From Eubacteriales bacterium (GTDB taxonomy: Bacteria; Bacillota; Clostridia; Oscillospirales; CAG-272): a stretch of DNA of 64,000 nucleotides. The translations under genes and the position numbers were made by a program. The stretch's first letter is position 1. Every line of letters starts with the position of its first letter. Below are positions 6,117 to 33,720 of this stretch, piece by piece. Location: positions 122,315-186,314 of the forward strand of contig JAZKYL010000113.1 in the NCBI GenBank assembly GCA_045612105.1. The letters are read 5' to 3'. The notes beneath the pieces were generated by a model. It was not told the origin of the DNA. It made no database searches and saw only the letters and a list, made by a program, of their open reading frames with translations.

Positions 6117-6998
6117 TTATTTTAAATATACTCTTTTTGCGTTCTCTCCCATAACTTGAGGCAATTCGGCTTTTGTAAATATTCCGCTTTCCTCTACTCG
6201 GTCGATAAGCTGCTTATAGGTAAATTTGCATAGCACTCCGGGAATATCTGTACCCCAAAGCATTCGCTCTGCACCTATTACTTTTTTTAAGGATCTCAAA
6301 TAATCGGCTTGGGATTCAAGAGATAAATTTGCAAAATCCATTACAAAATTATCTCCCGTAAGGCTTTTGGCAAACTCCAAACGCATTTCATTTTTACCGT
6401 CATTGTTAGGGAAGAAACAATGGGTCATAACGAACAGAACGTTCCTATATCTTTCGACTATTGTTTTAAAACCTTCAAAATCAAAGCTCGGCATACTCAT
6501 AGTTCCCATATCGATAGCGACTGTCAATCCAAGAGCATCCGCTTTTTCAAGAAGATGGCAGAAAGCCTCATCGGTCAGTTTCAGATCACTGTGAAAGCCC
6601 GAAAGCCCCCATTCCGAGGATATCTCAAATTTTAATGCCTTGAATCTGTATCTTTCGATCAGATTGTCAAATATTTTATCGGCATAGAGGGCATAAGGGT
6701 CAATAGCTCCTACCGCAGTCAGCTTTTCGGGATATTTCGCCGCCGACTCTGCCATATAATCGTTATGAAAGCCATAGTTACCTCCTTGAAGAAGCACTGC
6801 GTGGTCAATGCCGTTCTCGTCCATTAACCCGATCAAAGTTTCGGCATGAAACCCTGTATCGCCGTACTCGGCAGGGAAGAATTGCTCAACGTGACCCGTT
6901 GCCCAAACACCTTTTCCTCCGCCTAAGGGACGAAATTCACCCTTTGCTCCGTACCCCTTGAGTATCTCGTAAACATGCGCGTGCGCATCAATTATCAT
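6117..6998 (-). CDS. amidohydrolase_2 (PF04909-type) metal-dependent hydrolase / sugar-lactonase-like
   Basis: N-terminal MIIDAHAHV metal-binding motif. Length and TIM-barrel-type pattern are typical of LigI/fuconolactonase relatives. Confidence 0.75.
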   Translation of the reverse strand: MIIDAHAHVYEILKGYGAKGEFRPLGGGKGVWATGHVEQFFPAEYGDTGFHAETLIGLMDENGIDHAVLLQGGNYGFHNDYMAESAAKYPEKLTAVGAIDPYALYADKIFDNLIERYRFKALKFEISSEWGLSGFHSDLKLTDEAFCHLLEKADALGLTVAIDMGTMSMPSFDFEGFKTIVERYRNVLFVMTHCFFPNNDGKNEMRLEFAKSLTGDNFVMDFANLSLESQADYLRSLKKVIGAERMLWGTDIPGVLCKFTYKQLIDRVEESGIFTKAELPQVMGENAKRVYLK

Positions 6999-7013
6999 AA
7001 TAATACCCCCTCT

Positions 7014-7784
7014 TTAAAGCGAGTCGATTAATGCTTTAACACGTCTTGCTTCTGCCATAAGCATTCCAAGCTCGGTGTTGACCCAGAAAATATTCATTCC
7101 TTCACTGTGCCATTTGGTCATAGCCGCGTCGCCGCCCATAAAGATTCCGGCGCTTTTACCATGGGCGTTACTGACTCGGATAACCTTGCGTATATAATCA
7201 TCGTAGGTAGTATCGGGCTTTTGACAGTCAAATGTGGGATAACCCATTGCTGCTTCAAGATCGTTAGGACCAACGATCACCCCCGCTATGTGCTCGCCGT
7301 ATCTCGTAAGCATATCATCAAGCAGGTCTATTCCCTGAGGGGACTCCATCTGCAAAAAAAGAAGTCTGTTTCTGTTAAATTCGGCTATAGTCTCGCCCTT
7401 TCGGAGACAAGCTCTGCCGCCAACTCCCTTTTTGCCGTATGGAGGCATACGCAGTGAGCGGATAGCTGTTTCAACTTGCTCAAAGGTCTCTGTGCGGGGA
7501 ATAAGCACACCGTCAGCACCCATATCGATACACTTCGAGATACAGTGATATTCGCAATCCTGAACTCTTGCAATAAGAGGAATATCGGCTATTCTACAGG
7601 CCTGTCCCAAATCCCCGAGTATTTCGGGATAAAAAGCACCGTGTTCAAGGTCTGCCAAGATAAAGTCAACTCCGCAATTCTTATATACCTCGGGAAGTCT
7701 CGTATTGTTCCACTCGCAGAGCATAGTTGAATAGATCTTCTCGCCATTTTGCAATTTTTCTTTTAATTTCTCAATACCGCTCAT
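7014..7784 (-). CDS. HpcH/HpaI-family aldolase (2-keto-3-deoxy-sugar-acid aldolase-like)
   Basis: DLEHG, ARVQ, PPYGKKGVG and GPNDL motifs characteristic of class II pyruvate aldolases (YfaU/HpaI). Confidence 0.8.
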   Translation of the reverse strand: MSGIEKLKEKLQNGEKIYSTMLCEWNNTRLPEVYKNCGVDFILADLEHGAFYPEILGDLGQACRIADIPLIARVQDCEYHCISKCIDMGADGVLIPRTETFEQVETAIRSLRMPPYGKKGVGGRACLRKGETIAEFNRNRLLFLQMESPQGIDLLDDMLTRYGEHIAGVIVGPNDLEAAMGYPTFDCQKPDTTYDDYIRKVIRVSNAHGKSAGIFMGGDAAMTKWHSEGMNIFWVNTELGMLMAEARRVKALIDSL

Positions 7785-7950
7785 AATTTTTTGCCTACCT
7801 TTCGGAAATCTATTGATTTTAATCGAAAAATGTGTTAAAGTATCTTATAAACACTACCTAAATTATACATAAACAAAGATAGATTTTTAAGTGAGAATGA
7901 TACGTAAAAATTGAACTATCTTCCGAGAGAATATGTATTTGGAGGAATTT

Positions 7951-8823
7951 ATGTCAAGTGAAAGAGAACTTATACGAGTAAATAGCTTTTATACCGTGAA
8001 TTTTTTTGACCTTTCGCCGTTTTTTCATACTAATTTTCATAATCACGACTGCTGGGAGCTATTCTACGTTGACAGCGGCGAGGTTAATTGCATTACTGAG
8101 AGCGATAGCAGAATACTGAAGGCGGGGGACGTGATATTTCACTGTCCCGGATCTGTACATAATACAGTTTGTAACGGTAAGAGAGCCGCCGCTATATTTA
8201 ACGTCCTTTTTTTCATCGATTCACCGGCGATGGAGTTTCTGAGCGGAAAAAGCCTGAAGGTTCCGGAAAAGCTGTTACCTACTCTAAGGAATTTTATAAA
8301 CGAGTGCAATAAGACCTACTTGGTTTCGGAGCATCCATTGAAATCGAAAAAGAAGGCACCTTTTGGCGGGGAACAGCTTTCACGGATATATCTTGAAGAA
8401 TTTCTTTTACTTATGATAAGAGTGCTTCAAAATGATAATCAAACCGAACACTACGCAGCTGAAAACGATACAGATAACGTTCTTATTGATGATATTTGCG
8501 AATTTTTGTCCGAAAACGTTTATAATACGGTAACTTTGAGGGATCTATGTGAAAGATTTCACTTTGGTAAAAGCTATCTTTCGGAGCAGTTTAAAAAATG
8601 CAAAGGTTCTTCAATAATGAGCTTCTTTCTCGGTCTAAAACTGGCAGAAGCCAAAAGAATGCTTCGAGAAGAAAATCTTACCATTGGGCAAATATCTGAA
8701 AAATTGGGATTTGAGAGTCCCGAGTATTTTTCAAGGTATTTCAAAAAAAGAGTAGGGCATTCGCCGAGAGATTTCAGAAAAATGCTGATAAATAATGCGT
8801 CTTTGAAGAAAAAAGAACTGTAA
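7951..8823 (+). CDS. AraC-family transcriptional regulator (cupin + HTH)
   Basis: N-terminal cupin-like domain; C-terminal AraC HTH (…GFESPEYFSRYFKKRVGHSPRDFR). GGAGG SD precedes the ATG at 7951; the track ORF starts at 7933. Confidence 0.9.
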   Translation: MSSERELIRVNSFYTVNFFDLSPFFHTNFHNHDCWELFYVDSGEVNCITESDSRILKAGDVIFHCPGSVHNTVCNGKRAAAIFNVLFFIDSPAMEFLSGKSLKVPEKLLPTLRNFINECNKTYLVSEHPLKSKKKAPFGGEQLSRIYLEEFLLLMIRVLQNDNQTEHYAAENDTDNVLIDDICEFLSENVYNTVTLRDLCERFHFGKSYLSEQFKKCKGSSIMSFFLGLKLAEAKRMLREENLTIGQISEKLGFESPEYFSRYFKKRVGHSPRDFRKMLINNASLKKKEL

Positions 8824-24996: not shown

Positions 24997-25857
24997 ATGA
25001 CTAATTCTACGAAAAAGACTCAAAACGTAATAGGAATAGACGTCGGCGGCAGCACTACCAAGATCGTTGGATTCAAAATGGGAGAGAGTGGCGAAAATAC
25101 GCTCATATCGCCCTTTCTCGTTCGCGCAACCGACCCCTTGACCTCAATATACGGCGCGTTCGGTAAATTCACTGCCGAAAATAACCTTTCTCTTGAAGAT
25201 ATTGACCGAATCATGGTAACGGGAGTGGGTGCTACACATATGCAGAAACCCATTTACTCTCTGAATTGCCACACCGTCCCCGAGTTTTCGGCGGCGGCTC
25301 TCGGCGGCCTCTATTTGTCGGGACTTGACGAGGCAATTATCGTCAGCATGGGCACCGGTACGGCTCTTATCCATGCCAAAAAAGAGGGAAATAAGACCAA
25401 GATCAATTACCTTGGCGGTACAGGCGTGGGCGGCGGTACGCTCCTCGGCCTTACCAAGAAAATGACGGGAATCGACACCATCGAGCATATCGAAGAAATA
25501 TGTAAGGACGGCGACCTTCATAACGTCAATTTGCTGGTTGGAGACATCTCCAAAAACGCGAAATTCACGGGCGTTAACGAAAACCTTACAGCATCCAACT
25601 TCGGCAAGGTCTCGGATATGGCGACCAACAGTGATATTGCTCTCGGAGTTGCAAATATGGTTGCCGAAACTATCGCTATGATGTCGGTGTTTACCGCGAG
25701 AGGTCACGGAATCAAAAACGTCGTGCTTATCGGAAACCTCACAACTATCAAACCCGTCCGCGACGTCTTCGCAGACCTTGACTCCTTCGGTATCAACTTT
25801 ATCATACCCGAAAACGCAAGCTTCGGTACAGTTGTCGGCGCGGCACTGTATGGATAA
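24997..25857 (+). CDS. coaW: type II pantothenate kinase
   Basis: Aligns by eye with staphylococcal CoaW motifs: GIDVGGSTTKIV, MGTGTA, GGTGVGGGTLLGL, LTASNFG and FGTVVGAALY. Confidence 0.75.
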   Translation: MTNSTKKTQNVIGIDVGGSTTKIVGFKMGESGENTLISPFLVRATDPLTSIYGAFGKFTAENNLSLEDIDRIMVTGVGATHMQKPIYSLNCHTVPEFSAAALGGLYLSGLDEAIIVSMGTGTALIHAKKEGNKTKINYLGGTGVGGGTLLGLTKKMTGIDTIEHIEEICKDGDLHNVNLLVGDISKNAKFTGVNENLTASNFGKVSDMATNSDIALGVANMVAETIAMMSVFTARGHGIKNVVLIGNLTTIKPVRDVFADLDSFGINFIIPENASFGTVVGAALYG

Positions 25858-25872
25858 TAAGGAGAAAAGCAT

Positions 25873-28800
25873 ATGAAAACATCAGTTGTTTCAAAATTAG
25901 CGTTTATATTGGCACTCATACTTTGTGTGTCAAGCCTTCAGGCGTGTGATTTGACTTCTTTGGTTGAAGGTACAGAAAACAATAGCGACGAAACCTTAGG
26001 ATCAACTTCTAATATCGAATTTGCAACTAACTCAAACGGTGTTGATTTAACCGAGGAGTCTACCGAGTCATTTGTTGAAGATCAAACCGAGACAGAGAAT
26101 GTTTTTCTCAACGATCTAACATTTTACCTTCTCGGTAACAAAGAGTTATATGAGGTTGGTATAAAAGAAAGAAATAACGGCAAGGATAACAGAATCGAAG
26201 TGCTGAATATTCCCGCAACGTTTAACGGGAAGCCCGTTGTTCAAATAAAAAACTCAGGATTTAAAAACTTACACAGTCTCACCGACGTAACGCTCCCGGA
26301 GGGTATTATTAAGATCGGTTCGGAGGCTTTTTCGGGGTGTAAATCGCTGAAAAAGGTAATAATCCCGTCAACCGTTACAAATATAGATAAGTCGGCATTT
26401 AAGAACTGTACCGATCTTGAAGAAATAAGATACAACGGCACAATCGAGGACTGGAACGGCATTCAATTCGGCAAGGATTGGGATCACAAGGTAGAATGTT
26501 ACATATACTGCACCGACGGAATAATCAATCCTAACAACGAAATAGAAACCTATCCCTCTGAAACCTCCTCTGAGACGTCCGCTGAAACGTCCACCGAATT
26601 ACTTACAAAAGAATCCACGGAGGAAACAACTATCAGCGAGGAAGAGACCTCGGTAATTGGCGAGACGACGACTATAGAAGATCTGACAACGGAAGAACTA
26701 ACAACGGAAGAACTGACAACGGAAGAGCTGACAACAGACGAAAGCGATACTAATGAAGAGTCGACAACCGAGCCCCATACCCATAGTTTCGGTGATTGGG
26801 AAATAATAAAGAATGCAGACTGCACCAACATCGGCGAGCAGAAACGCGCCTGCGCTTGTGGAGAAGTCGAAACTCAGAATATCGATCCTGTCGGTCATAC
26901 AGAAGTAACCGATGATGCTGTTGCGCCCACTTGTACCGAAACAGGACTTACAGAAGGCAAGCACTGCTCGGTTTGTGGCGAGGTTCTTGTTGAACAAGAG
27001 ATTGTTGACGCGCTTGGTCATACTGCGGGGGCAAATGCTACTTGTACAACTACACAGAATTGTACAGTTTGCGGTGAAGTATTGAATCCCGCGCTTGGAC
27101 ATACAGAAGTAACCGATGAAGCGGTTGCGCCCACTTGTACTGATACGGGTCTTACCGAGGGTAAGCACTGTTCGGTTTGTGGTGAGGTTCTTGTTGATCA
27201 AAAGATCGTTGTCGCGCTTGGTCACACAGCCGGAGCTGATGCGACTTGTACAACAACACAGAATTGTACTGTTTGCGGAGAAGTGTTGAACCCCGCGCTT
27301 GGTCACACCGAAGTAACAGATGAAGCCGTTGCTCCCACTTGTACAGAAACCGGTTTGACAGATGGCAAACATTGTTCGGTTTGTGGCGAGGTACTTGTTG
27401 AACAAGATATCGTTGCCGCGCTTGGTCACACAGCCGGAGCTGATGCTACTTGTACAACAACACAGAATTGTACCGTATGTGGAGAAGTATTGAATCCTGC
27501 GCTGGGTCACACCGAAGTAATCGATAAAGCGGTTGATCCCACTTGTACCGAAACGGGACTTACAGAGGGCAAGCATTGTTCGGTTTGTAAAGAAATCCTC
27601 GTTGCTCAAGAGATTGTTTCGGCACTTGGACACACCGCCGGAGCTGATGCTACTTGTACATCTACACAAAATTGTACCATTTGCGGTGAAGTATTGAATC
27701 CTGTGCTGGGTCATACAGAAGTAACCGATGAAGCGGTTGATCCCACTTGTACAGAAACAGGACTTACAAAAGGCAAGCATTGTTCGGTTTGTGGCGAGGT
27801 ACTTGTTGAACAAGATATCGTTGCCGCGCTTGGTCACACAGCCGGAGCTGATGCTACCTGTACAACAACACAGAATTGTACCGTATGTGGAGAAGTATTG
27901 AACCCCGCGCTTGGACATACTGAAATAACCGATGAAGCGGCTGCGCCCACTTGTACTGAAACAGGTCTTACAGAAGGCAAGCATTGTTCGGTTTGTGGCG
28001 AGGTACTTGTTGAACAAGATATCGTTGCCGCGCTTGGTCACACAGCCGGAGCTGATGCTACTTGTACAACAACACAGAATTGTACCGTATGTGGAGAAGT
28101 ATTGAACCCCGCGCTTGGACATACTGAAATAACCGATGAAGCGGCTGCGCCCACTTGTACTGAAACAGGTCTTACAGAAGGCAAACATTGTTCGGTTTGT
28201 GGTGAAGTTCTTGTTGAACAAAAGATCGTTGCAGCGTTTGGACATACTCCGGGAGCTAATGCTACTTGCACAACTACACAAAATTGTACTGTTTGCGGTG
28301 AAATATTGAATCCCGCGCTTGGTCATACCGAAGTAACGGATGAAGCCGTTGCTCCTACTTGTACAGAAACTGGTTTGACAGATGGCAAACATTGTTCGGT
28401 TTGTGGCGAAACACTCGTTGCTCAGCAAATTATCGATGCGCTTGGACATACTGCGGGGGCAGAGGCTACTTGTACAACTACGCAGAATTGTACCGTCTGC
28501 GGTGAGGTTTTGAATCCCGCGCTTGGACATAGTGAGGTTATTGATGTTGCGGTGGCTTCTACTTGTACCAAGACCGGACTTACTGAGGGTAAGCATTGTT
28601 CGGTTTGTGGCGAAGTTCTTGTTGCGCAAGAAACTATCAACGCTCTTGGGCATATTGAAGTATCGCACGAATCAAAAGAACCTACTTGCACAGAGATCGG
28701 TTGGGATTCTTATGTGACCTGCGATAGGGAAGAGTGCGAATATTCAACCTATCTCGAAAAACCTGCTCTTGGACATAATTATGTAGATAAGATTTGCACA

Positions 28801-30864
28801 AATTGCGGTAAACTTAAACCAAGTGAAGGACTGGAATTCACTTTATCATCTGATAAAAAATCCTATTATGTAAGTGGAATTGGAACTTGTACAGATACCG
28901 ATGTTGTGATTCCAGATACATATAATGGTTTACCTGTTACAGAAATTGGAAATAGTGCGTTTAGTGGCTGTATAAATATCAATAGTATAATAATCCCGGA
29001 CAGTGTAATAAGTATTAGTTATAATGCGTTCTACGGTTGTTCAAGCCTTATATACGTATCTTTACCCGATAGTGTTACACAAATTCGTTCTAATGCTTTC
29101 TACAACTGTTCAAGACTTACAAGTATAACTATACCCGATGGTATTACTAGCATTGATTATGGAACGTTTTATAACTGTATTAATCTTACTAGTGTAACCA
29201 TACCTAAAAGTGTTACCTACATTGGTGATAATTCGTTTAAAAATTGCTACAAACTTATAGAGATATACAATCAATCAAACATAACTATTGTCTCTGGTGA
29301 TTCTTATTACAACGGCGGTATTGGTTATTATGCAAAAAACATTTATACTGATACAATCGGAGAAAGTAAACTGATAAATGAGGATGGATACATTTTTTAC
29401 TGTGATGATGAAACAAGCCAATATTATCTTATAGGATATATAGGTACAGAAGCCCAATTAACTTTACCGGATACTATTAACCATAACAAATATGAAATAT
29501 ACATATATGCTTTCTATAATAATGATAAGATTACAACTGTAACCATACCAAACAGTGTCACAAGTATTGGTGGTGGTGCGTTCTATGATTGCACAAGACT
29601 CACAAGCATAACTATCCTAGCTAGCGTAACCAGCATTGGTGGCAGTACGTTCTATGATTGCGCGAACCTCACAAGCATAACTATCCCAGCTAGCGTAACT
29701 AGCATTGGTCAACAAGTTTTTCATGGTTGCTCAAGCCTTGCAAGTATAACTATCCCAGCTAGCGTAACTAGCATTGGTGACAGGGCATTCGGTGGTTGCT
29801 CAAACCTCACAAGCATAACTATCCCAGCTAGCGTAACCAGCATTGGCCAACAAGTTTTTCATGGTTGTTCAAGCCTTGCAAGTATTAATGTTAGTGAAGG
29901 TAACTCTAAATACCACAGTGACGGAAATTGTTTGATAAGTACAAAACAAAAAATGGTAATAGCTGGTTGTAAAAACAGTGTAATTCCTTCTGACGGAAGT
30001 GTTACAAGTATTGGCAATTATGCATTTTCAAATTGCACAACTCTTAAAAACATAACCATTCCTGATAGTATTACAAAAATCTTTGACCATGCTTTTTGGC
30101 TTTGTTCAGGTTTTACAAATATATATATTCCCAATAGTGTATCCGAAATAGGTACATCCGCCTTTCAAGGTTGTTCAAAACTTTTAAGTGTTACTTTCGA
30201 AGAGAATAATCAATCGCTATATTTTTATAGTGGTAGCCAATTCGCAGGATGCTTAAGTCTTACGACCATAAACATTCCTGATGGTGCTACAAGTATTAGC
30301 CATGGTATGTTTAGCGGTTGTTCAAGCCTTACAAGCATAACTATCCCTGATAGTGTTACAAGCATTGGTAATTATGCATTCTCCGGTTGCTCAAGCCTCA
30401 CGAACATAACCATCCCAGACAGTGTCATAAGCATTGGTTCTTCTGCGTTCTCCGGTTGCTCGAGTCTTATGAGCATAACCATCCCAGATAGTGTTACAGT
30501 CATTAGTAATTATGCATTCTACGGTTGCTCAAGCCTTGCGAGCATAGTTATCCCCGACAGTGTCACAAGCATTGGTAATCATGCGTTCTCAGGTTGCAGA
30601 AGCCTTACGAACATAACCATCCCCGACAGTGTCACAAGTATTGGTGAATATGCGTTCTGGGATTGCTCAAGCCTTACGAGCATAAATATCCCCGACGGTG
30701 TCACAAGCATTGGTTCTTGTGCGTTCAATAATTGCTCAAGCCTTAAAACCGTATATTACACCGGAACCGAAGAAGAATGGGCACAGATAAGCATTTCTTC
30801 AAGCGGTAACAATTATCTCACAAACGCAACGATAATCTACAACTACGTTCCCGAGGGGGAATAA
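25873..30864 (+). CDS. 1663-aa surface lipoprotein with Cys/His-rich tandem mini-domains and BspA-type leucine-rich repeats
   Basis: Signal peptide plus lipobox (…VSSLQAC) and a T/E/S-rich linker. About 9 x 68-aa repeats, then about 25 repeats of the '[23 protein letters not shown]' LRR type; AAGGAG SD. Confidence 0.9.
   Translation: [1663 protein letters not shown]
26683..26742 (+). repeat. 4 x 15-bp tandem repeat encoding (L)TTEE linker
   Basis: CTGACAACGGAAGAA-type unit repeated head to tail. Confidence 0.85.
26893..28647 (+). repeat. 8.6 x 204-bp in-frame tandem repeat (68-aa unit)
   Basis: Unit starts fall at 26893, 27097, 27301, 27505, 27709, 27913, 28117, 28321 and 28525, exactly 204 bp apart. 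Degenerate units flank the array (~26776 and 28648-28830). Confidence 0.95.
28900..30770 (+). repeat. BspA-type LRR (LRR_5-like) coding repeats, ~69-bp period with near-identical cassettes
   Basis: Recurrent ITIP(D/A)SVTSIG…F.GCSSL(T/A)S units; several DNA units are nearly identical. Confidence 0.85.
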
Positions 30865-30880
30865 TCGAATAATTTAAGAA

Positions 30881-30907
30881 AGCGCGGGAGTGATCTCGCG
30901 CTTTTGC
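30881..30907 (+). terminator. intrinsic terminator
   Basis: AGCGCGGGAG-tgat-CTCGCGCTTTT. Confidence 0.75.
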
Positions 30908-31000
30908 TATGAATGAGGGAAATTTAAGGTCTTGGGACGCTAAAAGAGGGAATTAAGCTCAATTTTTGCAAAAATCTCGGCAAATATCGTTGAAAATCCC

Positions 31001-31029
31001 TTGACTTTCCCTTGTTTTAATGATATAAT
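31001..31029 (+). promoter_or_regulatory. sigma-A promoter (TTGACT-17-TATAAT) for alaS
   Basis: Hexamers and 17-nt spacer read directly. Confidence 0.6.
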
Positions 31030-31089
31030 ATTATGGTTAAATTATAAAATCGCTAATTATGGCTAAATTTTGAAAGGACGTACACAAAA

Positions 31090-33720
31090 ATGAAGTGGAC
31101 ATCACTCAACGATCTGAGAGAAAAGTATCTCTCCTTCTTTGAATCCAAGGGACATCTTCGTCTCCCTTCCTATTCGCTCGTTCCTCACAATGACAAGTCT
31201 TTGTTACTTATAAACTCGGGCATGGCTCCTATGAAGAAGTTCTTCACGGGCGAGGAAATTCCTCCCAGAAACCGCGTTACCACATGCCAGAAGTGCATTC
31301 GTACTCCTGACCTTGAGCGCGTTGGTCACACTGCGCGTCACGGTACATTCTTCGAGATGCTTGGTAACTTCTCCTTCGGTGACTACTTCAAGGAAGAAGC
31401 TATCGCTTGGTCCTGGGAATTCCTCACCGGTTGGCTTGAGATCCCCGGAGACCTTCTCTGGCCCTCTATCTACGAGAACGACGAGGAGGCTTACGACATC
31501 TGGGTCAATAAGATCGGCGTGAACCCCGCACACGTAGTTCGTCTCGGCAAGGCAGACAACTTCTGGGAGCACGGAAGCGGTCCTTGCGGTCCTTGCTCCG
31601 AGATCTATTTTGACCGCGGTATCAAGTACGGTTGCGGAAGTCCCGACTGTAAGCCCGGTTGCGATTGCGACAGATTTATGGAGATCTGGAACAACGTATT
31701 CTCTCAGTTCAACAACGACGGCAAGGGCAACTACACCGAGCTGGCGCAGAAGAACATCGATACAGGTATGGGTCTTGAGAGACTTGCTTGCGTAATGCAG
31801 GGCGTTGACAATATGTTCGAGGTCGACTCCATCCGTAAGGTCATCGACAAGACCTGCGAGATCGCAGGCAAGAATTACGGCGACAATGCAGAGAACGATA
31901 TCTCTATCCGCGTTGTAACCGACCACTCCAGAAGCGCAATGTTTATGATAAGTGACGGTGTTATCCCCTCCAACGAGGGAAGAGGCTACGTCCTCCGCCG
32001 TATAATCCGCCGCGCTTGCCGCCACGGTAAGCTTCTCGGCATCAATCACCCTTTCCTTGTTGATACCGTTACCGTATCTATTGAAGAGAGCTGCCGCGCT
32101 TACCCCGAGCTTGACGAAAAGCGCGCTTATATCCTCAAGGTCATCGCAATGGAGGAAGAAAGATTCGACGCGACCGTTGATGCAGGTCTTTCCAAGCTCT
32201 CCGAGATGATTGAGGATGCAAAGAAAAACGGAGCAGATCAGCTTTCGGGCGACGATGTATTCAAGCTTTACGATACATTTGGTTTCCCCATTGACCTCAC
32301 CCGTGAAATCGCTGAAGAAAGCGGGCTTGCAATCGACGAGGAGACCTTCAAAGCTCTTATGAAGGAGCAGAGAGACAGAGCGAGAGCCGCAAGAGGCAAC
32401 GTTGGCGGTTGGGACAGCTCCGATAAAGAAATGCTCGCAGGTATTTCCGCTACCGAATTCACCGGCTACACCGAGACCGAGATCGAAGCAAAGGTAGTTG
32501 CTATCATTGCCGACGGTATGCTGGTTGATGAAATAAGCGAGGGCGAATTCACTCTCATTCTCGATAAGACACCTTTCTACGGAGAGGGTGGCGGTCAGGT
32601 TGGTGATACCGGTGTTATCAGCAACGCTGATTTCACCGCAACCGTTCTTGACACCAAGAAGACCGACGGCATCTATCTCCACGTATGTGAGCTGTCCTCC
32701 GGCGCGGTTAAGGTTGGTGACACCGTTACCGCAAGCATTGATAACGCTCGCAGAAACGCTATAAAGAGAAATCACTCCTCGCTCCACCTCCTCCAGGGTG
32801 CACTCCGTCAGGTGCTTGGCACCCACGTTGAGCAGTCCGGCTCTTACGTTGACGCTGAAAGAGGTCGTTTCGACTTTACTCACTTCGCCGCAGTTACCCC
32901 CGACGAGCTTGCAAAGGTTGAGGCTCTTGTAAACGCTACCGTTCTTTCCGGTATCGCGGTTGACACTATTGAAACCGACATCGAGAGCGCAAAGAAGCTT
33001 GGCGCGATGATGCTATTCGGAGAGAAGTACGGCGCAACCGTCAGAGTTGTTAAGATGGGAGACGCTTCCACCGAATTCTGCGGAGGTACTCACGTTGATA
33101 ACACCGCAAAGATCGGTCTTTTCAAGATCTTATCCGAGTCGAGCGTTGCCGCAGGTATTCGTCGTATCGAGGTCGTAACAGGTCTTGGCGTGCTTGATCT
33201 TTTGGCTGCAAAGGACAAGCTGATCTCGGAGACTGCCGCAGAGCTGAAGGTTCAGAACCCCGTTGACATCGCAAAGAAGGCATCTCAGCTTCAGGGCGAG
33301 ATTGCAGGCATGAAGAAGGAGATCGAATCTCTCAACTCCAAGCTTGCCGGCAGTAAGCTTGCAGATGTTCTCGCAGGTGCAGTTTCCGTTGGCTCCGTTA
33401 AGCTCGTTACCTACCTTGCTGACGGCATGGAGATCGATGCCGCAAGAAGCCTTTGTGACAAGATCAAGGCAGAGAACAGTGATATGGTTGCGGTTCTTGC
33501 GGTCAAGTCGGGCGACAAGCTCAACTTTATCGCGGTCGCAGGTAAGGACGCAGTTGCCGCAGGCGCGCATGCGGGCAAGATCGTAGGCGCAGTTGCATCT
33601 GTAACCGGCGGTAAGGGCGGCGGACGTCCCGACAATGCAATGGCAGGCGGACGAGACGCAAATAAGATCGCAGAAGCTCTTGAGAGCGCAAAGGCAACTC
33701 TTGAGGGAATGCTTAAGTAA
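31090..33720 (+). CDS. alaS: alanine--tRNA ligase
   Basis: 876 aa. Class II AlaRS N-terminal pattern (FFESKGH, RHGTFFEMLGNFSFGDYFK), editing-domain HxxxH/CxxxH motifs and a C-terminal DHHA1 domain. Confidence 0.95.
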   Translation: MKWTSLNDLREKYLSFFESKGHLRLPSYSLVPHNDKSLLLINSGMAPMKKFFTGEEIPPRNRVTTCQKCIRTPDLERVGHTARHGTFFEMLGNFSFGDYFKEEAIAWSWEFLTGWLEIPGDLLWPSIYENDEEAYDIWVNKIGVNPAHVVRLGKADNFWEHGSGPCGPCSEIYFDRGIKYGCGSPDCKPGCDCDRFMEIWNNVFSQFNNDGKGNYTELAQKNIDTGMGLERLACVMQGVDNMFEVDSIRKVIDKTCEIAGKNYGDNAENDISIRVVTDHSRSAMFMISDGVIPSNEGRGYVLRRIIRRACRHGKLLGINHPFLVDTVTVSIEESCRAYPELDEKRAYILKVIAMEEERFDATVDAGLSKLSEMIEDAKKNGADQLSGDDVFKLYDTFGFPIDLTREIAEESGLAIDEETFKALMKEQRDRARAARGNVGGWDSSDKEMLAGISATEFTGYTETEIEAKVVAIIADGMLVDEISEGEFTLILDKTPFYGEGGGQVGDTGVISNADFTATVLDTKKTDGIYLHVCELSSGAVKVGDTVTASIDNARRNAIKRNHSSLHLLQGALRQVLGTHVEQSGSYVDAERGRFDFTHFAAVTPDELAKVEALVNATVLSGIAVDTIETDIESAKKLGAMMLFGEKYGATVRVVKMGDASTEFCGGTHVDNTAKIGLFKILSESSVAAGIRRIEVVTGLGVLDLLAAKDKLISETAAELKVQNPVDIAKKASQLQGEIAGMKKEIESLNSKLAGSKLADVLAGAVSVGSVKLVTYLADGMEIDAARSLCDKIKAENSDMVAVLAVKSGDKLNFIAVAGKDAVAAGAHAGKIVGAVASVTGGKGGGRPDNAMAGGRDANKIAEALESAKATLEGMLK

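What the first reader, a model, noticed from the sequence alone, without database searches (positions are those of the whole stretch)
26893..28830. Perfectly periodic array of ~19 His/Cys3 mini-domains in a surface lipoprotein
The 68-aa unit consists of two sub-repeats. Type A is 41 aa: GH-T-x10-C-x10-C-x2-C, for example [41 protein letters not shown]. Type B is 27 aa: GH-T-x6-C-x5-C-x2-C, for example GHTAGADATCTTTQNCTVCGEVLNPAL. Each sub-repeat has one invariant His and three invariant Cys, which looks like a treble-clef or zinc-knuckle-like Cys3His site. Alternatively, the 6 Cys per unit could form 3 disulfides. This gives a beads-on-a-string stalk between an N-terminal LRR-like head and a C-terminal BspA-type LRR block, on a lipid-anchored protein. 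A long chain of putative metal- or disulfide-stabilised knuckles outside the cell is not a domain type I can name. It could act as a rigid spacer or adhesin stalk, or as a metal sink.
Basis: partly seen in the sequence, partly recalled or inferred. Interest (0 to 1): 0.6.

Follow-up and report, generated by a model that had tools for sequence, protein, structure and literature searches.

The report
Zinc-clasp mini-domain stalk in surface adhesin
A gut-anaerobe surface lipoprotein holds its leucine-rich binding head on a rod of 20 tiny His/Cys3 (probably zinc-clasped) beta mini-domains, which belong to a huge, uncatalogued repeat family noticed so far only in one IgA protease in 2025.

Summary
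ORF 25873-30864 (+, 1663 aa) encodes a lipobox signal, a small BspA-type LRR, a Thr/Glu-rich linker, 20 His/Cys3 units (aa 302-985) and a large BspA LRR block.

Eight 204-bp A+B periods are 88% identical in protein and 84% in DNA. Differences sit mostly at third codon positions, so the protein sequence is under purifying selection.

No Pfam or NCBIfam model covers the unit. AlphaFold2 gives an all-beta model at pLDDT 97, and Foldseek finds no significant PDB match.

A profile of single units hits the Thomasclavelia ramosa IgA protease (PDB 9qa6, E=1.4e-8). The hit falls in its "ZBD1/ZBD2" (also called CTD2/CTD4) regions. Two 2025 papers describe these as putative zinc-binding, rod-like "periscope" domains of an uncharacterised fold. 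Zinc binding was never measured.

The family is very large: 48,705 clusters at 50% identity, mainly Oscillospiraceae and other gut or rumen Clostridia.

In close relatives the same chromosomal slot is empty or holds cassettes with 0, about 4 or at least 7 units.

Best reading: a metal-clasped spacer that projects the LRR head. It is a new member of a barely characterised kind.

The parts
25859..25864 (+). Shine-Dalgarno AAGGAG, 8 nt before the ATG. The upstream gene stops at 25857, so the two genes are probably co-transcribed.
   Evidence: Sequence read.
25873..30864 (+). Whole gene: 1663-aa surface lipoprotein (LRR, linker, His/Cys3 stalk, LRR).
   Evidence: ORF list; Pfam.
25873..25947 (+). 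Signal peptide with lipobox L-Q-A-C (aa 22-25). Cys25 is the predicted lipidated N-terminus.
   Evidence: Translation. The lipobox assignment rests on the pattern only (own knowledge of PROSITE PS51257) and was not run through a predictor.
26236..26451 (+). Small N-terminal BspA-type LRR (LRR_5) domain, core match aa 122-193.
   Evidence: Pfam LRR_5 E=9.3e-19 on aa 26-230.
26518..26775 (+). Thr/Glu/Ser-rich low-complexity linker (aa 216-301), with 12-bp and 15-bp tandem repeats (TTEEL x4).
   Evidence: TRF rows 26555-26592 and 26677-26735; translation.
26776..26892 (+).
   Evidence: The same start-unit type is present in relative L082.
26893..28524 (+). Eight A+B periods of 204 bp / 68 aa (aa 341-884). 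A = 41 aa, H-x11-C-x10-C-x2-C. B = 27 aa, H-x7-C-x5-C-x2-C.
   Evidence: AF2 of aa 474-617 gives pLDDT 97.
28525..28647 (+). Ninth A unit (aa 885-925).
28648..28770 (+). Divergent 'EIGW' unit (aa 926-966), knuckle C-x4-C. The same subtype builds the stalk in relative L090.
   Evidence: unit HMM E=1.7e-11.
28771..28827 (+). Truncated cap unit GHNYVDKICTNCGKLKPSE (His plus CxxC only) at the junction to the LRR head.
   Evidence: Analogous caps occur in P0087 (GHSFTDGTCTVCG) and L090 (GHTFNNENTCARC).
28828..30861 (+). C-terminal BspA-type LRR block (LRR_5 x5, PARCEL repeats): the presumed ligand-binding head.
   Evidence: Pfam LRR_5 E=9.7e-160; NCBIfam TIGR02167 57.5 bits against a cut-off of 30.
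26698..28668 (-). Antisense 656-aa ORF: a repeat-generated artefact, not a gene.
   Evidence: The codon-position bias of substitutions fits the + frame.

Best explanation
The array is a stalk. Each of the 20 units is a tiny all-beta mini-domain with almost no hydrophobic core: three strands in type A, one hairpin in type B.

I infer that each unit is held together by one tetrahedral structural metal ion, most likely Zn2+. The proposed ligands are the His at the start of the unit, a Cys in the PTCTxxG loop, and the two Cys of the CxxC knuckle between the last two strands. Because the His sits directly after the 'ALG' tail of the previous unit, each site would also clasp neighbouring units together. 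The result would be a continuous semi-rigid rod.

Scaling from the published roughly 110 A for the 129-residue homologous ZBD1, 684 residues would span roughly 50-60 nm.

The protein would be lipid-anchored at Cys25. The rod would carry the C-terminal BspA-type LRR head through and beyond the cell wall. There the head binds its still unknown ligand on a host, food particle or other microbe.

Shown here: the repeat anatomy, the conservation, purifying selection, a confident all-beta prediction, homology to the IgA-protease ZBD/CTD2 domains, the family size and the locus variability.

Inferred: metal identity and occupancy, rigidity and length, lipidation, and the function of the head.
For: - Ligand columns: in 1221 unique related units, His was never substituted where aligned. 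C1 is 98% and the Gly four residues after C1 is 100% conserved. C2 and C3 are 99%, and every apparent loss listed is a Cx1C or Cx4C spacing variant.
- 1256 of 1287 GH-delimited units have exactly 3 Cys.
- Arrays begin with His and end without it (P0009, P0017, P0082). This places His as the N-terminal ligand of each unit.
- AF2: the four-unit model has pLDDT 97.0 and pTM 0.63. The single-unit model has pLDDT 92.8. Both are all-beta, with the CxxC between strands 25-28 and 34-36.
- A single-unit profile hits PDB 9qa6_A, the T. ramosa IgA protease, at E=1.4e-8. The match includes HNLTLVAAKAATCTTAGNSAYYTCDGC, which has identical H-x11-C-x10-C-x2-C spacing.
- Those regions are ZBD1/ZBD2 in PMC12237041: about 110 A long, three-stranded subdomains, predicted tetrahedral Cys/His sites at the subdomain interfaces, no disulfides seen, DTT needed for monodispersity.
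- The same regions are CTD2/CTD4 in PMC12415215. SAXS of isolated CTD2 shows a fully extended rod that matches the AF2 model.
- Purifying selection: 135/81/680 differences by codon position.
- Spacer role across the family: the units sit between cohesin, dockerin, SLH, LRR_5, Big_2, catalytic modules and membrane anchors in thousands of proteins.
- In close relatives, BspA-type LRR lipoprotein cassettes in the same slot come with 0 or at least 7 units, so the stalk is a separable module.
- Hosts are gut and rumen anaerobes, where extracellular thiolates can stay reduced (own knowledge).
Against: - No metal has been measured for any member of this family, including the IgA-protease domains.
- I could not read the model coordinates, so I did not verify here that the four ligands converge.
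- AF2 does not model metals.
- pTM 0.63 leaves the inter-unit geometry, and hence rigidity, uncertain. SEC-SAXS in PMC12237041 found flexible linkers between the C-terminal domains of IgAse.
- C1 is lost in about 2% of units, often to residues that cannot bind metal (Tyr, Ala, Thr).
- The very high cross-taxon conservation of non-ligand residues could mean the units do more than act as a spacer.
Confidence: 0.7

Rival explanations
1. Disulfide-stabilised extracellular mini-domains (EGF-like or Kazal-like). The six Cys of each A+B period would form three disulfides, with no metal involved.
For: - The protein is extracellular and Cys-rich.
- There are weak cumulative Pfam hits to the laminin/attractin EGF model on relatives.
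- The single-unit profile gives borderline hits to Kazal inhibitors (ovomucoid E=0.0058). They share the same local spacing, C-x3-G-x-T-x4-C-x2-C.
Against: - There are three Cys per unit. Units occur singly and in odd-numbered or mixed arrays, so intradomain pairing would always leave a free thiol.
- The invariant His would be unexplained.
- C1 is replaced by Glu, Asp or His in 12 of 26 exceptions.
- IgAse variants carry 2His+2Cys sites instead, and no disulfides were seen there (PMC12237041).
- The hosts are strict anaerobes.
- No EGF or Kazal Pfam model passes its threshold.
Confidence: 0.08
2. The units are themselves adhesive or ligand-binding repeats (multivalent binding to a glycan, mucin, plant polymer or partner protein), not merely a spacer. 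A metal site may still be present.
For: - Non-ligand residues are unusually conserved between units (88% aa despite many synonymous changes).
- Conservation is also high between proteins of different families and taxa (50-70% identity).
- A 200-aa lipoprotein in relative L082 consists of about 4 units with no other domain.
- Proteins such as P0001 and P0044 are almost nothing but units plus a membrane anchor.
Against: - No binding data exist.
- Mini-domains without a core may simply tolerate few substitutions.
- The units are always interposed between recognisable functional modules and anchors.
Confidence: 0.15
3. Iron or redox centres (a rubredoxin-like chain) for extracellular electron transfer, or a bulk metal store or sink.
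For: There are weak NCBIfam rubredoxin hits that span the CxxCG knuckles of adjacent units (41.8 bits), and rubredoxin appears in the PDB sequence search at E of about 0.9.
Against: - The score is far below the rubredoxin cut-off of 90.
- There is only one knuckle per unit, and the ligand set is Cys3His, not Cys4.
- If units are about 3-4 nm long (from the published ZBD1 length), the sites would be too far apart for electron hopping (own knowledge).
- There is no CxxCH haem motif.
- No redox genes are linked; the neighbours are alaS, an NFACT-family gene and a Fumble-like gene.
Confidence: 0.03

Closest known systems
ZBD1/ZBD2 (= CTD2/CTD4) of the Thomasclavelia ramosa IgA protease IgAse/IgAP (UniProt Q9AES2; PDB 9qa6 sequence; PMC12237041, PMC12415215)
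   Same: - Homologous by profile (E=1.4e-8), and one subdomain has the identical H-x11-C-x10-C-x2-C spacing.
- Small all-beta subdomains placed end to end.
- Four Cys/His ligands per junction.
- No close structural homologue in the PDB.
- Proposed role as a stalk or 'periscope' in a surface protein of a Gram-positive gut anaerobe.
   Different: - IgAse has only 3+2 heterogeneous subdomains, mostly 2His+2Cys sites, interrupted by a beta-barrel domain. They sit C-terminal to a protease with a sortase anchor.
- Here there are 20 units, 17 of them near-identical and strictly alternating A/B, all Cys3His. They lie between two BspA LRR domains on an N-terminally lipid-anchored protein.
- Neither case has a solved structure or a metal measurement for these domains.
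Periscope proteins and SasG/Aap G5-E rods (PMC8201768; PDB 3tiq, 4wve, 5tu9)
   Same: - Tandem, highly similar small beta domains without a conventional hydrophobic core form a rod that projects a binding domain.
- G5-E structures are the top, though non-significant, Foldseek hits.
   Different: - There is no sequence or significant fold similarity (E 0.2, TM 0.14).
- In Aap, zinc acts between molecules through His, Asp and Glu. Here an intramolecular Cys3His site is expected.
- The DNA repeats are only 84% identical with many synonymous changes, so this is not recent homogenisation.
- Allelic variation in repeat number was not demonstrated.
Zinc ribbon / zinc-knuckle hairpins (for example the TFIIS C-terminal domain, NrdR, rubredoxin)
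   Same: - A CxxC(G) knuckle sits between two antiparallel strands of a three-stranded sheet.
- Weak sub-threshold hits to many zinc-ribbon models.
- PMC12237041 notes a distant resemblance of one ZBD1 subdomain to TFIIS.
   Different: - There is only one knuckle. The other two ligands (His and Cys) are 11 residues apart and come from the N-terminal strand and a loop.
- The domain is extracellular, tandem, and has no nucleic-acid context.
- No model passes its threshold.
BspA-like LRR (Pfam LRR_5) surface proteins
   Same: The head and the N-terminal domain are bona fide LRR_5. This architecture is common in gut Clostridia.
   Different: This describes the flanking domains, not the repeat under study.

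Membership tests
IgAse ZBD / IgAP CTD2-CTD4 type Cys/His beta-rod domain | Sequence homology to the ZBD subdomains | tested here: met
   A profile of 131 single units against PDB sequences hits 9qa6_A at E=1.4e-8. It matches three stretches (854-885, 939-978, 1106-1141) that map onto ZBD1 and ZBD2. A four-unit profile gives E=0.0033.
IgAse ZBD / IgAP CTD2-CTD4 type Cys/His beta-rod domain | Each subdomain is a small up-and-down antiparallel beta-sheet, with no helices and units arranged end to end | tested here: met
   AF2 models with pLDDT 97.0 and 92.8. Type A has strands 7-10, 25-28 and 34-36. Type B has a two-strand hairpin. This is a prediction only.
IgAse ZBD / IgAP CTD2-CTD4 type Cys/His beta-rod domain | Four Cys/His ligands per unit or junction | tested here: met
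   One His and three Cys in 18 of the 20 units. The 'EIGW' unit has a wider Cx4C knuckle. The cap has only His plus CxxC.
IgAse ZBD / IgAP CTD2-CTD4 type Cys/His beta-rod domain | Zinc actually bound; extended rod in solution | not testable with these tools
   Zinc was not measured even for the founding member. The rod shape is shown by SAXS only for IgAP CTD2 (PMC12415215).
Periscope proteins (Whelan et al. 2021) | Cell-surface anchoring | tested here: inconclusive
   Signal peptide plus LQAC lipobox read from the sequence. No predictor or experiment was used.
Periscope proteins (Whelan et al. 2021) | Tandem array of highly similar folded domains | tested here: met
   Eight periods, 88% aa and 84% nt identity (77-95% pairwise). 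Confident fold prediction.
Periscope proteins (Whelan et al. 2021) | Repeat-number variation between strains | tested here: inconclusive
   In relatives with 93-95% identical AlaRS the same slot is empty or holds 0, about 4 or at least 7 units. The LRR heads are only about 36% identical. This is cassette replacement, not allelic length variation.
Classical zinc ribbon / rubredoxin | Two CxxC knuckles per domain; model score above the curated cut-off | tested here: not met
   One knuckle per unit. All zinc-ribbon, DZR, VATC and rubredoxin hits are sub-threshold or are cumulative, with no individually significant stretch.
Treble-clef zinc finger | Zinc knuckle followed by an alpha-helix that supplies ligands | tested here: not met
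   No helix in either AF2 model.
Kazal / EGF-like disulfide-rich domains | Six conserved Cys forming three disulfides within one domain; Pfam match | tested here: not met
   Three Cys per unit. No Kazal or EGF model passes its threshold. There is only a local motif resemblance.
G5 / E repeats (SasG, Aap) | Significant sequence or fold similarity | tested here: not met
   Foldseek best E=0.2, TM 0.14. No Pfam G5 hit.
BspA-type LRR (LRR_5) protein (whole protein) | Pfam PF13306 above its gathering score | tested here: met
   E=2.7e-175 for the whole protein. N-terminal domain 9.3e-19 and C-terminal block 9.7e-160.

The most novel reading that the evidence does not exclude
These Cys3His clasps could make the stalk a reversible extracellular switch. 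In the anoxic, zinc-replete gut lumen the rod would be stiff and extended. Oxygen, oxidants, or host zinc withholding (for example by calprotectin) would strip the metal, collapse the stalk and retract the adhesin head.

If so, tens of thousands of Clostridial surface proteins would share a built-in redox and zinc sensor. They would also carry a large extracellular zinc quota.
Probability: 0.12. Interest if true: 0.8.

Novelty: new member of a known kind. Interest (0 to 1): 0.55.

Why it matters
- **Scale.** This repeat may be one of the most abundant uncatalogued extracellular domain families in gut and rumen Clostridia. It has 48,705 clusters at 50% identity, occurs in proteins up to 7,583 aa, and often has many paralogues per genome.
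- **No reference data.** It has no Pfam or NCBIfam model, no solved structure and no biochemical data.
- **Unusual chemistry.** Cys-rich zinc sites are generally regarded as intracellular (own knowledge). A metal-clasped, core-less beta rod used outside the cell by strict anaerobes would be an unusual way to build long, mechanically strong stalks. Such stalks carry adhesins, cellulosome and amylosome components, and proteases.
- **A good test subject.** The window gives a clean, regular, canonical-tandem example. It would suit structure determination, metal analysis and single-molecule mechanics.
- **Annotation.** Defining the family would annotate large unannotated stretches of microbiome surface proteins. 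It would also flag a repeat that breaks short-read assemblies.

Tried and rejected
- **Family databases.** Pfam and NCBIfam scans of the whole protein, the array, single and double units and six other family members found nothing that models the unit. The only hits are cumulative sub-threshold matches to zinc-ribbon, EGF, rubredoxin, VATC and DUF7459 models. Relatives with more than 20 units carry no precomputed Pfam hit from a newer release either. That argues against PF26486 or any similar model covering the repeat.
- **PDB by sequence.** phmmer of the array against PDB sequences gave nothing. Only the single-unit profile found 9qa6.
- **PDB by fold.** Foldseek of the four-unit and one-unit models found no match at E<=0.001.
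- **Exact look-ups.** The protein, its upstream neighbour and the 100%-identical AlaRS were not on record. The source record and species name were therefore not obtained.
- **Literature.** Keyword searches for cysteine-rich or zinc-ribbon repeats in Ruminococcus or the cellulosome were uninformative.
- **Considered and rejected.** c-type haem sites (no CxxCH); thioester, isopeptide or ester cross-link domains (units too small, motifs absent); a phage origin (1 viral locus against at least 532 genomic loci).
- **Other copies.** There is no second copy of the repeat elsewhere in the window.
Full report
**1. What is in the sequence**

ORF 25873-30864 (+) encodes 1663 aa. An AAGGAG Shine-Dalgarno lies 8 nt upstream of the ATG, directly after the stop codon of the preceding gene.

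The product begins MKTSVVSKLAFILALILCVSSLQAC. This is a signal peptide ending in an L-Q-A-C lipobox, assigned by pattern only. The rest of the protein runs as follows:
- A small BspA-type LRR domain (Pfam LRR_5, E=9.3e-19).
- A Thr/Glu/Ser-rich linker that contains short DNA tandem repeats.
- The His/Cys array (aa 302-985).
- A large LRR_5 block (E=9.7e-160; PARCEL repeats).

TRF reports a 204-bp period x 8.5 copies at 26896-28631, with 84% matches and no indels.

Splitting the translation at 'GH' gives these units:
- 9 A units of 41 aa (H-x11-C-x10-C-x2-C) alternating strictly with 8 B units of 27 aa (H-x7-C-x5-C-x2-C).
- A divergent 41-aa unit with a C-x4-C knuckle.
- A truncated cap, GHNYVDKICTNCGK.

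The array therefore has 20 units and spans window 26776-28827.

The eight full periods are on average 84% identical in DNA and 88% in protein. Their differences fall 135/81/680 on codon positions 1/2/3. The + frame is therefore translated and under purifying selection. The units have diverged substantially at synonymous sites, so they are not very recent copies. The 656-aa antisense ORF is an artefact of the repeat. No other ORF in the window carries the unit.

**2. Not in the domain catalogues**

Pfam-A and NCBIfam give no model that covers a unit. There are only sub-threshold or cumulative hits to CxxCG-containing zinc-ribbon, rubredoxin, VATC, EGF and DUF7459 models. None has an individually significant stretch of the right extent. 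The same holds for six other family members.

Relatives made of more than 20 units carry no precomputed Pfam annotation at all from a newer release.

phmmer of the array against all PDB sequences finds nothing.

**3. A very large family**

A word-indexed search saturated: 7944 of 8000 scored candidates had E<=1e-3.

A full HMMER profile search of 1.84 billion representatives found 48,705 clusters at E<=1e-3. Of these, 33,453 were at <=1e-10 and 14,412 at <=1e-30. Proteins reach 7,583 aa with dozens of units.

Units of 41, 39, 38, 27 and 46 aa are mixed modularly. They lie between cohesins, dockerins, SLH domains, LRR_5, Big_2, transglutaminase-like or other catalytic modules, and C-terminal membrane anchors.

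A scan of species-representative genomes gave at least 532 loci. Most are in Oscillospiraceae, Acutalibacteraceae, Lachnospiraceae, Christensenellaceae and Faecousia, often with several loci per MAG. The cultured Ruminococcus sp. JE7B6 also carries one. Only one locus turned up in 2.9 million viral contigs.

**4. Conservation pattern**

An HMM of the A unit retrieved 1547 units (1221 unique) from 121 proteins:
- His was never substituted where aligned.
- C1 is 98% conserved.
- The Gly four residues after C1 is 100% conserved.
- C2 and C3 are 99% conserved. Every apparent loss that was listed is a Cx1C or Cx4C spacing variant.

C1 is replaced in 26 units. Twelve of these replacements are Glu, Asp or His.

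1256 of 1287 GH-delimited units have exactly three Cys.

Arrays start with His and end without it.

**5. Structure**

AlphaFold2 of aa 474-617 (A-B-A-B), with 62 homologous four-unit segments, gave mean pLDDT 97.0 and pTM 0.63. The model is all-beta. Each A unit has strands at residues 7-10, 25-28 and 34-36, with the CxxC knuckle between the last two. Each B unit is a single hairpin around its knuckle. A single A unit with 130 homologues gave pLDDT 92.8 and the same strands.

I could not read the coordinates. The convergence of the four ligands on one site is therefore inferred, not measured.

**6. The link to known biology**

A profile of 131 single units against PDB sequences hits 9qa6_A, 'IgA protease', at E=1.4e-8. 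It matches three stretches. One is HNLTLVAAKAATCTTAGNSAYYTCDGC, with exactly the type-A spacing. The four-unit profile gives E=0.0033. This protein is the Thomasclavelia ramosa IgA protease.

PMC12237041 names these regions ZBD1 (E879-T1008) and ZBD2:
- ZBD1 has three subdomains and is about 110 A long. Each subdomain is a three-stranded antiparallel sheet.
- Putative tetrahedral zinc sites sit at the subdomain interfaces. They are 2His+2Cys, with one 3Cys+1His site.
- The models are AI predictions only.
- No disulfides were seen, and DTT was needed for monodispersity.

- SAXS shows that isolated CTD2 is a fully extended rod consistent with its AF2 model.
- The authors compare the domains with the G5 domains of SasG and Aap.

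Neither paper measured zinc in these domains. In the passages I read, neither describes the wider family or long tandem arrays.

**7. Locus comparison**

The adjacent AlaRS has a 100%-identical database entry and many relatives at 92-95% identity. Named relatives are 'Clostridia bacterium', and Oscillospiraceae or Ruminococcaceae at about 80%.

In those relatives, the slot between the BcrAD_BadFG/Fumble-like gene and alaS holds the following:
- L085, L086, L088 and L089: nothing.
- L083 and L084: an 836-aa lipoprotein with a Thr/Glu-rich linker and a BspA LRR head, but no His/Cys units.
- L090: two genes. One is a 320-aa lipoprotein with a small LRR. The other is a lipoprotein with at least 7 'EIGW'-type units, a cap and an LRR head. 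Its array contains a 100-N scaffold gap and frameshifts.
- L082: an M48 peptidase gene plus a 200-aa lipoprotein made of about 4 units and no head.

The LRR heads are only about 36% identical to the window's. This is a hypervariable surface-protein islet with cassette replacement. It is not proven allelic variation in repeat number. It does show that the stalk is a separable, optional module of variable length and unit type.

**8. Interpretation**

The best-supported reading (about 0.7) is a metal-clasped stalk. I infer one structural Zn(His)(Cys)3 site per unit. It would tie the N-terminal strand, the PTCTxxG loop and the knuckle hairpin together. Because the His directly follows the previous unit's tail, the site would also stiffen the junction. 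The resulting rod would be roughly 50-60 nm long, scaled from the published ZBD1 length. It would project the BspA LRR head from the lipid anchor through the wall.

Rivals:
- Disulfide-stabilised domains (about 0.08). This is disfavoured by the odd Cys count, the invariant His, the ligand-type substitutions, the IgAse data and the anaerobic hosts.
- The units as adhesive repeats in their own right (about 0.15, and not exclusive of a metal site). This is suggested by the strong conservation of non-ligand residues and by proteins that consist only of units.
- Iron, redox or metal-store functions (about 0.03).

'Treble clef' is contradicted by the helix-free models.

**9. Novelty and score**

The domain kind is no longer unnamed in the literature, because it was flagged in one protein in 2025. 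I therefore file this as a new member of a known but barely characterised kind.

What appears new here:
- The canonical near-identical tandem form.
- The A/B alternation.
- The size and taxonomic spread of the family.
- The variable locus.

Interest 0.55.

Noticed in passing
window 24997-31090; loci L082, L083, L084, L085, L086, L088, L089, L090: The slot between the BcrAD_BadFG/Fumble-like gene and alaS is hypervariable among relatives with 93-95% identical AlaRS. It is empty, or holds different lipoprotein cassettes with 0, about 4, at least 7 or 20 His/Cys units. The LRR heads are only about 36% identical.
   Followed up: partly
window 25873-26775 compared with L090 5429-6391 and about 6700-8622: The window's single 1663-aa protein looks like a fusion of the two adjacent lipoprotein genes seen in L090: a small-LRR lipoprotein, then a stalk+LRR lipoprotein. 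After its N-terminal LRR it runs straight into a Thr/Glu linker with no second signal peptide.
   Followed up: no
L082 8104-8706: A 200-aa lipoprotein consists only of a Thr/Glu linker plus about 4 His/Cys units and has no head domain. Its first unit resembles the window's start unit and its second resembles the window's 'EIGW' unit. It is either a remnant or a sign that the units function on their own.
   Followed up: no
window 26893-28524: The repeats differ mostly at synonymous sites (135/81/680 by codon position). The A-unit consensus is 50-70% identical across proteins from different bacterial families. That is unusually strong constraint for a mere spacer.
   Followed up: partly
single-unit profile A2 against PDB: There are borderline hits to Kazal-type inhibitors (ovomucoid E=0.0058, PSTI, SPINK6). 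They share the local motif P-x-C-x3-G-x-T-x4-C-x2-C with identical spacing. This is probably convergence, but remote ancestry was not examined.
   Followed up: no
window 26555-26592 and 26677-26742: Short in-frame DNA tandem repeats (12, 15 and 30 bp) in the Thr/Glu-rich linker encode TTEEL-type repeats. Relatives have much longer (ETETT)n linkers (L090), so linker length also varies.
   Followed up: no
window 26698-28668 (-): A 656-aa antisense ORF runs through the array. It is a by-product of the periodic sequence, not a gene.
   Followed up: yes
L090 7238-7337; many loci: The arrays break assemblies. L090 has a 100-N scaffold gap and frameshifts inside its array, and many family loci lie at contig ends. 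Repeat numbers in short-read MAGs are therefore unreliable.
   Followed up: no
L017, L022: Two loci with the repeat are on contigs binned as Bacteroidales or Bacteroidaceae. This could be horizontal transfer or mis-binning.
   Followed up: no
L081 4336-8610: In one relative, a 1424-aa lipoprotein with no Pfam hits and no His/Cys units lies just downstream of alaS. It is another uncharacterised surface protein in this variable neighbourhood.
   Followed up: no
L030 19-4704 (Ruminococcus sp. JE7B6, NZ_CP162391.1): A cultured, completely sequenced organism encodes an ORF of at least 1561 aa (it may continue upstream of the fetched locus). Reading the translation by eye, it appears to contain LRR repeats, several unit subtypes (about 13 units), a cohesin-like module and a dockerin-like C-terminus; none of these was scanned. 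It would be a tractable experimental model.
   Followed up: no
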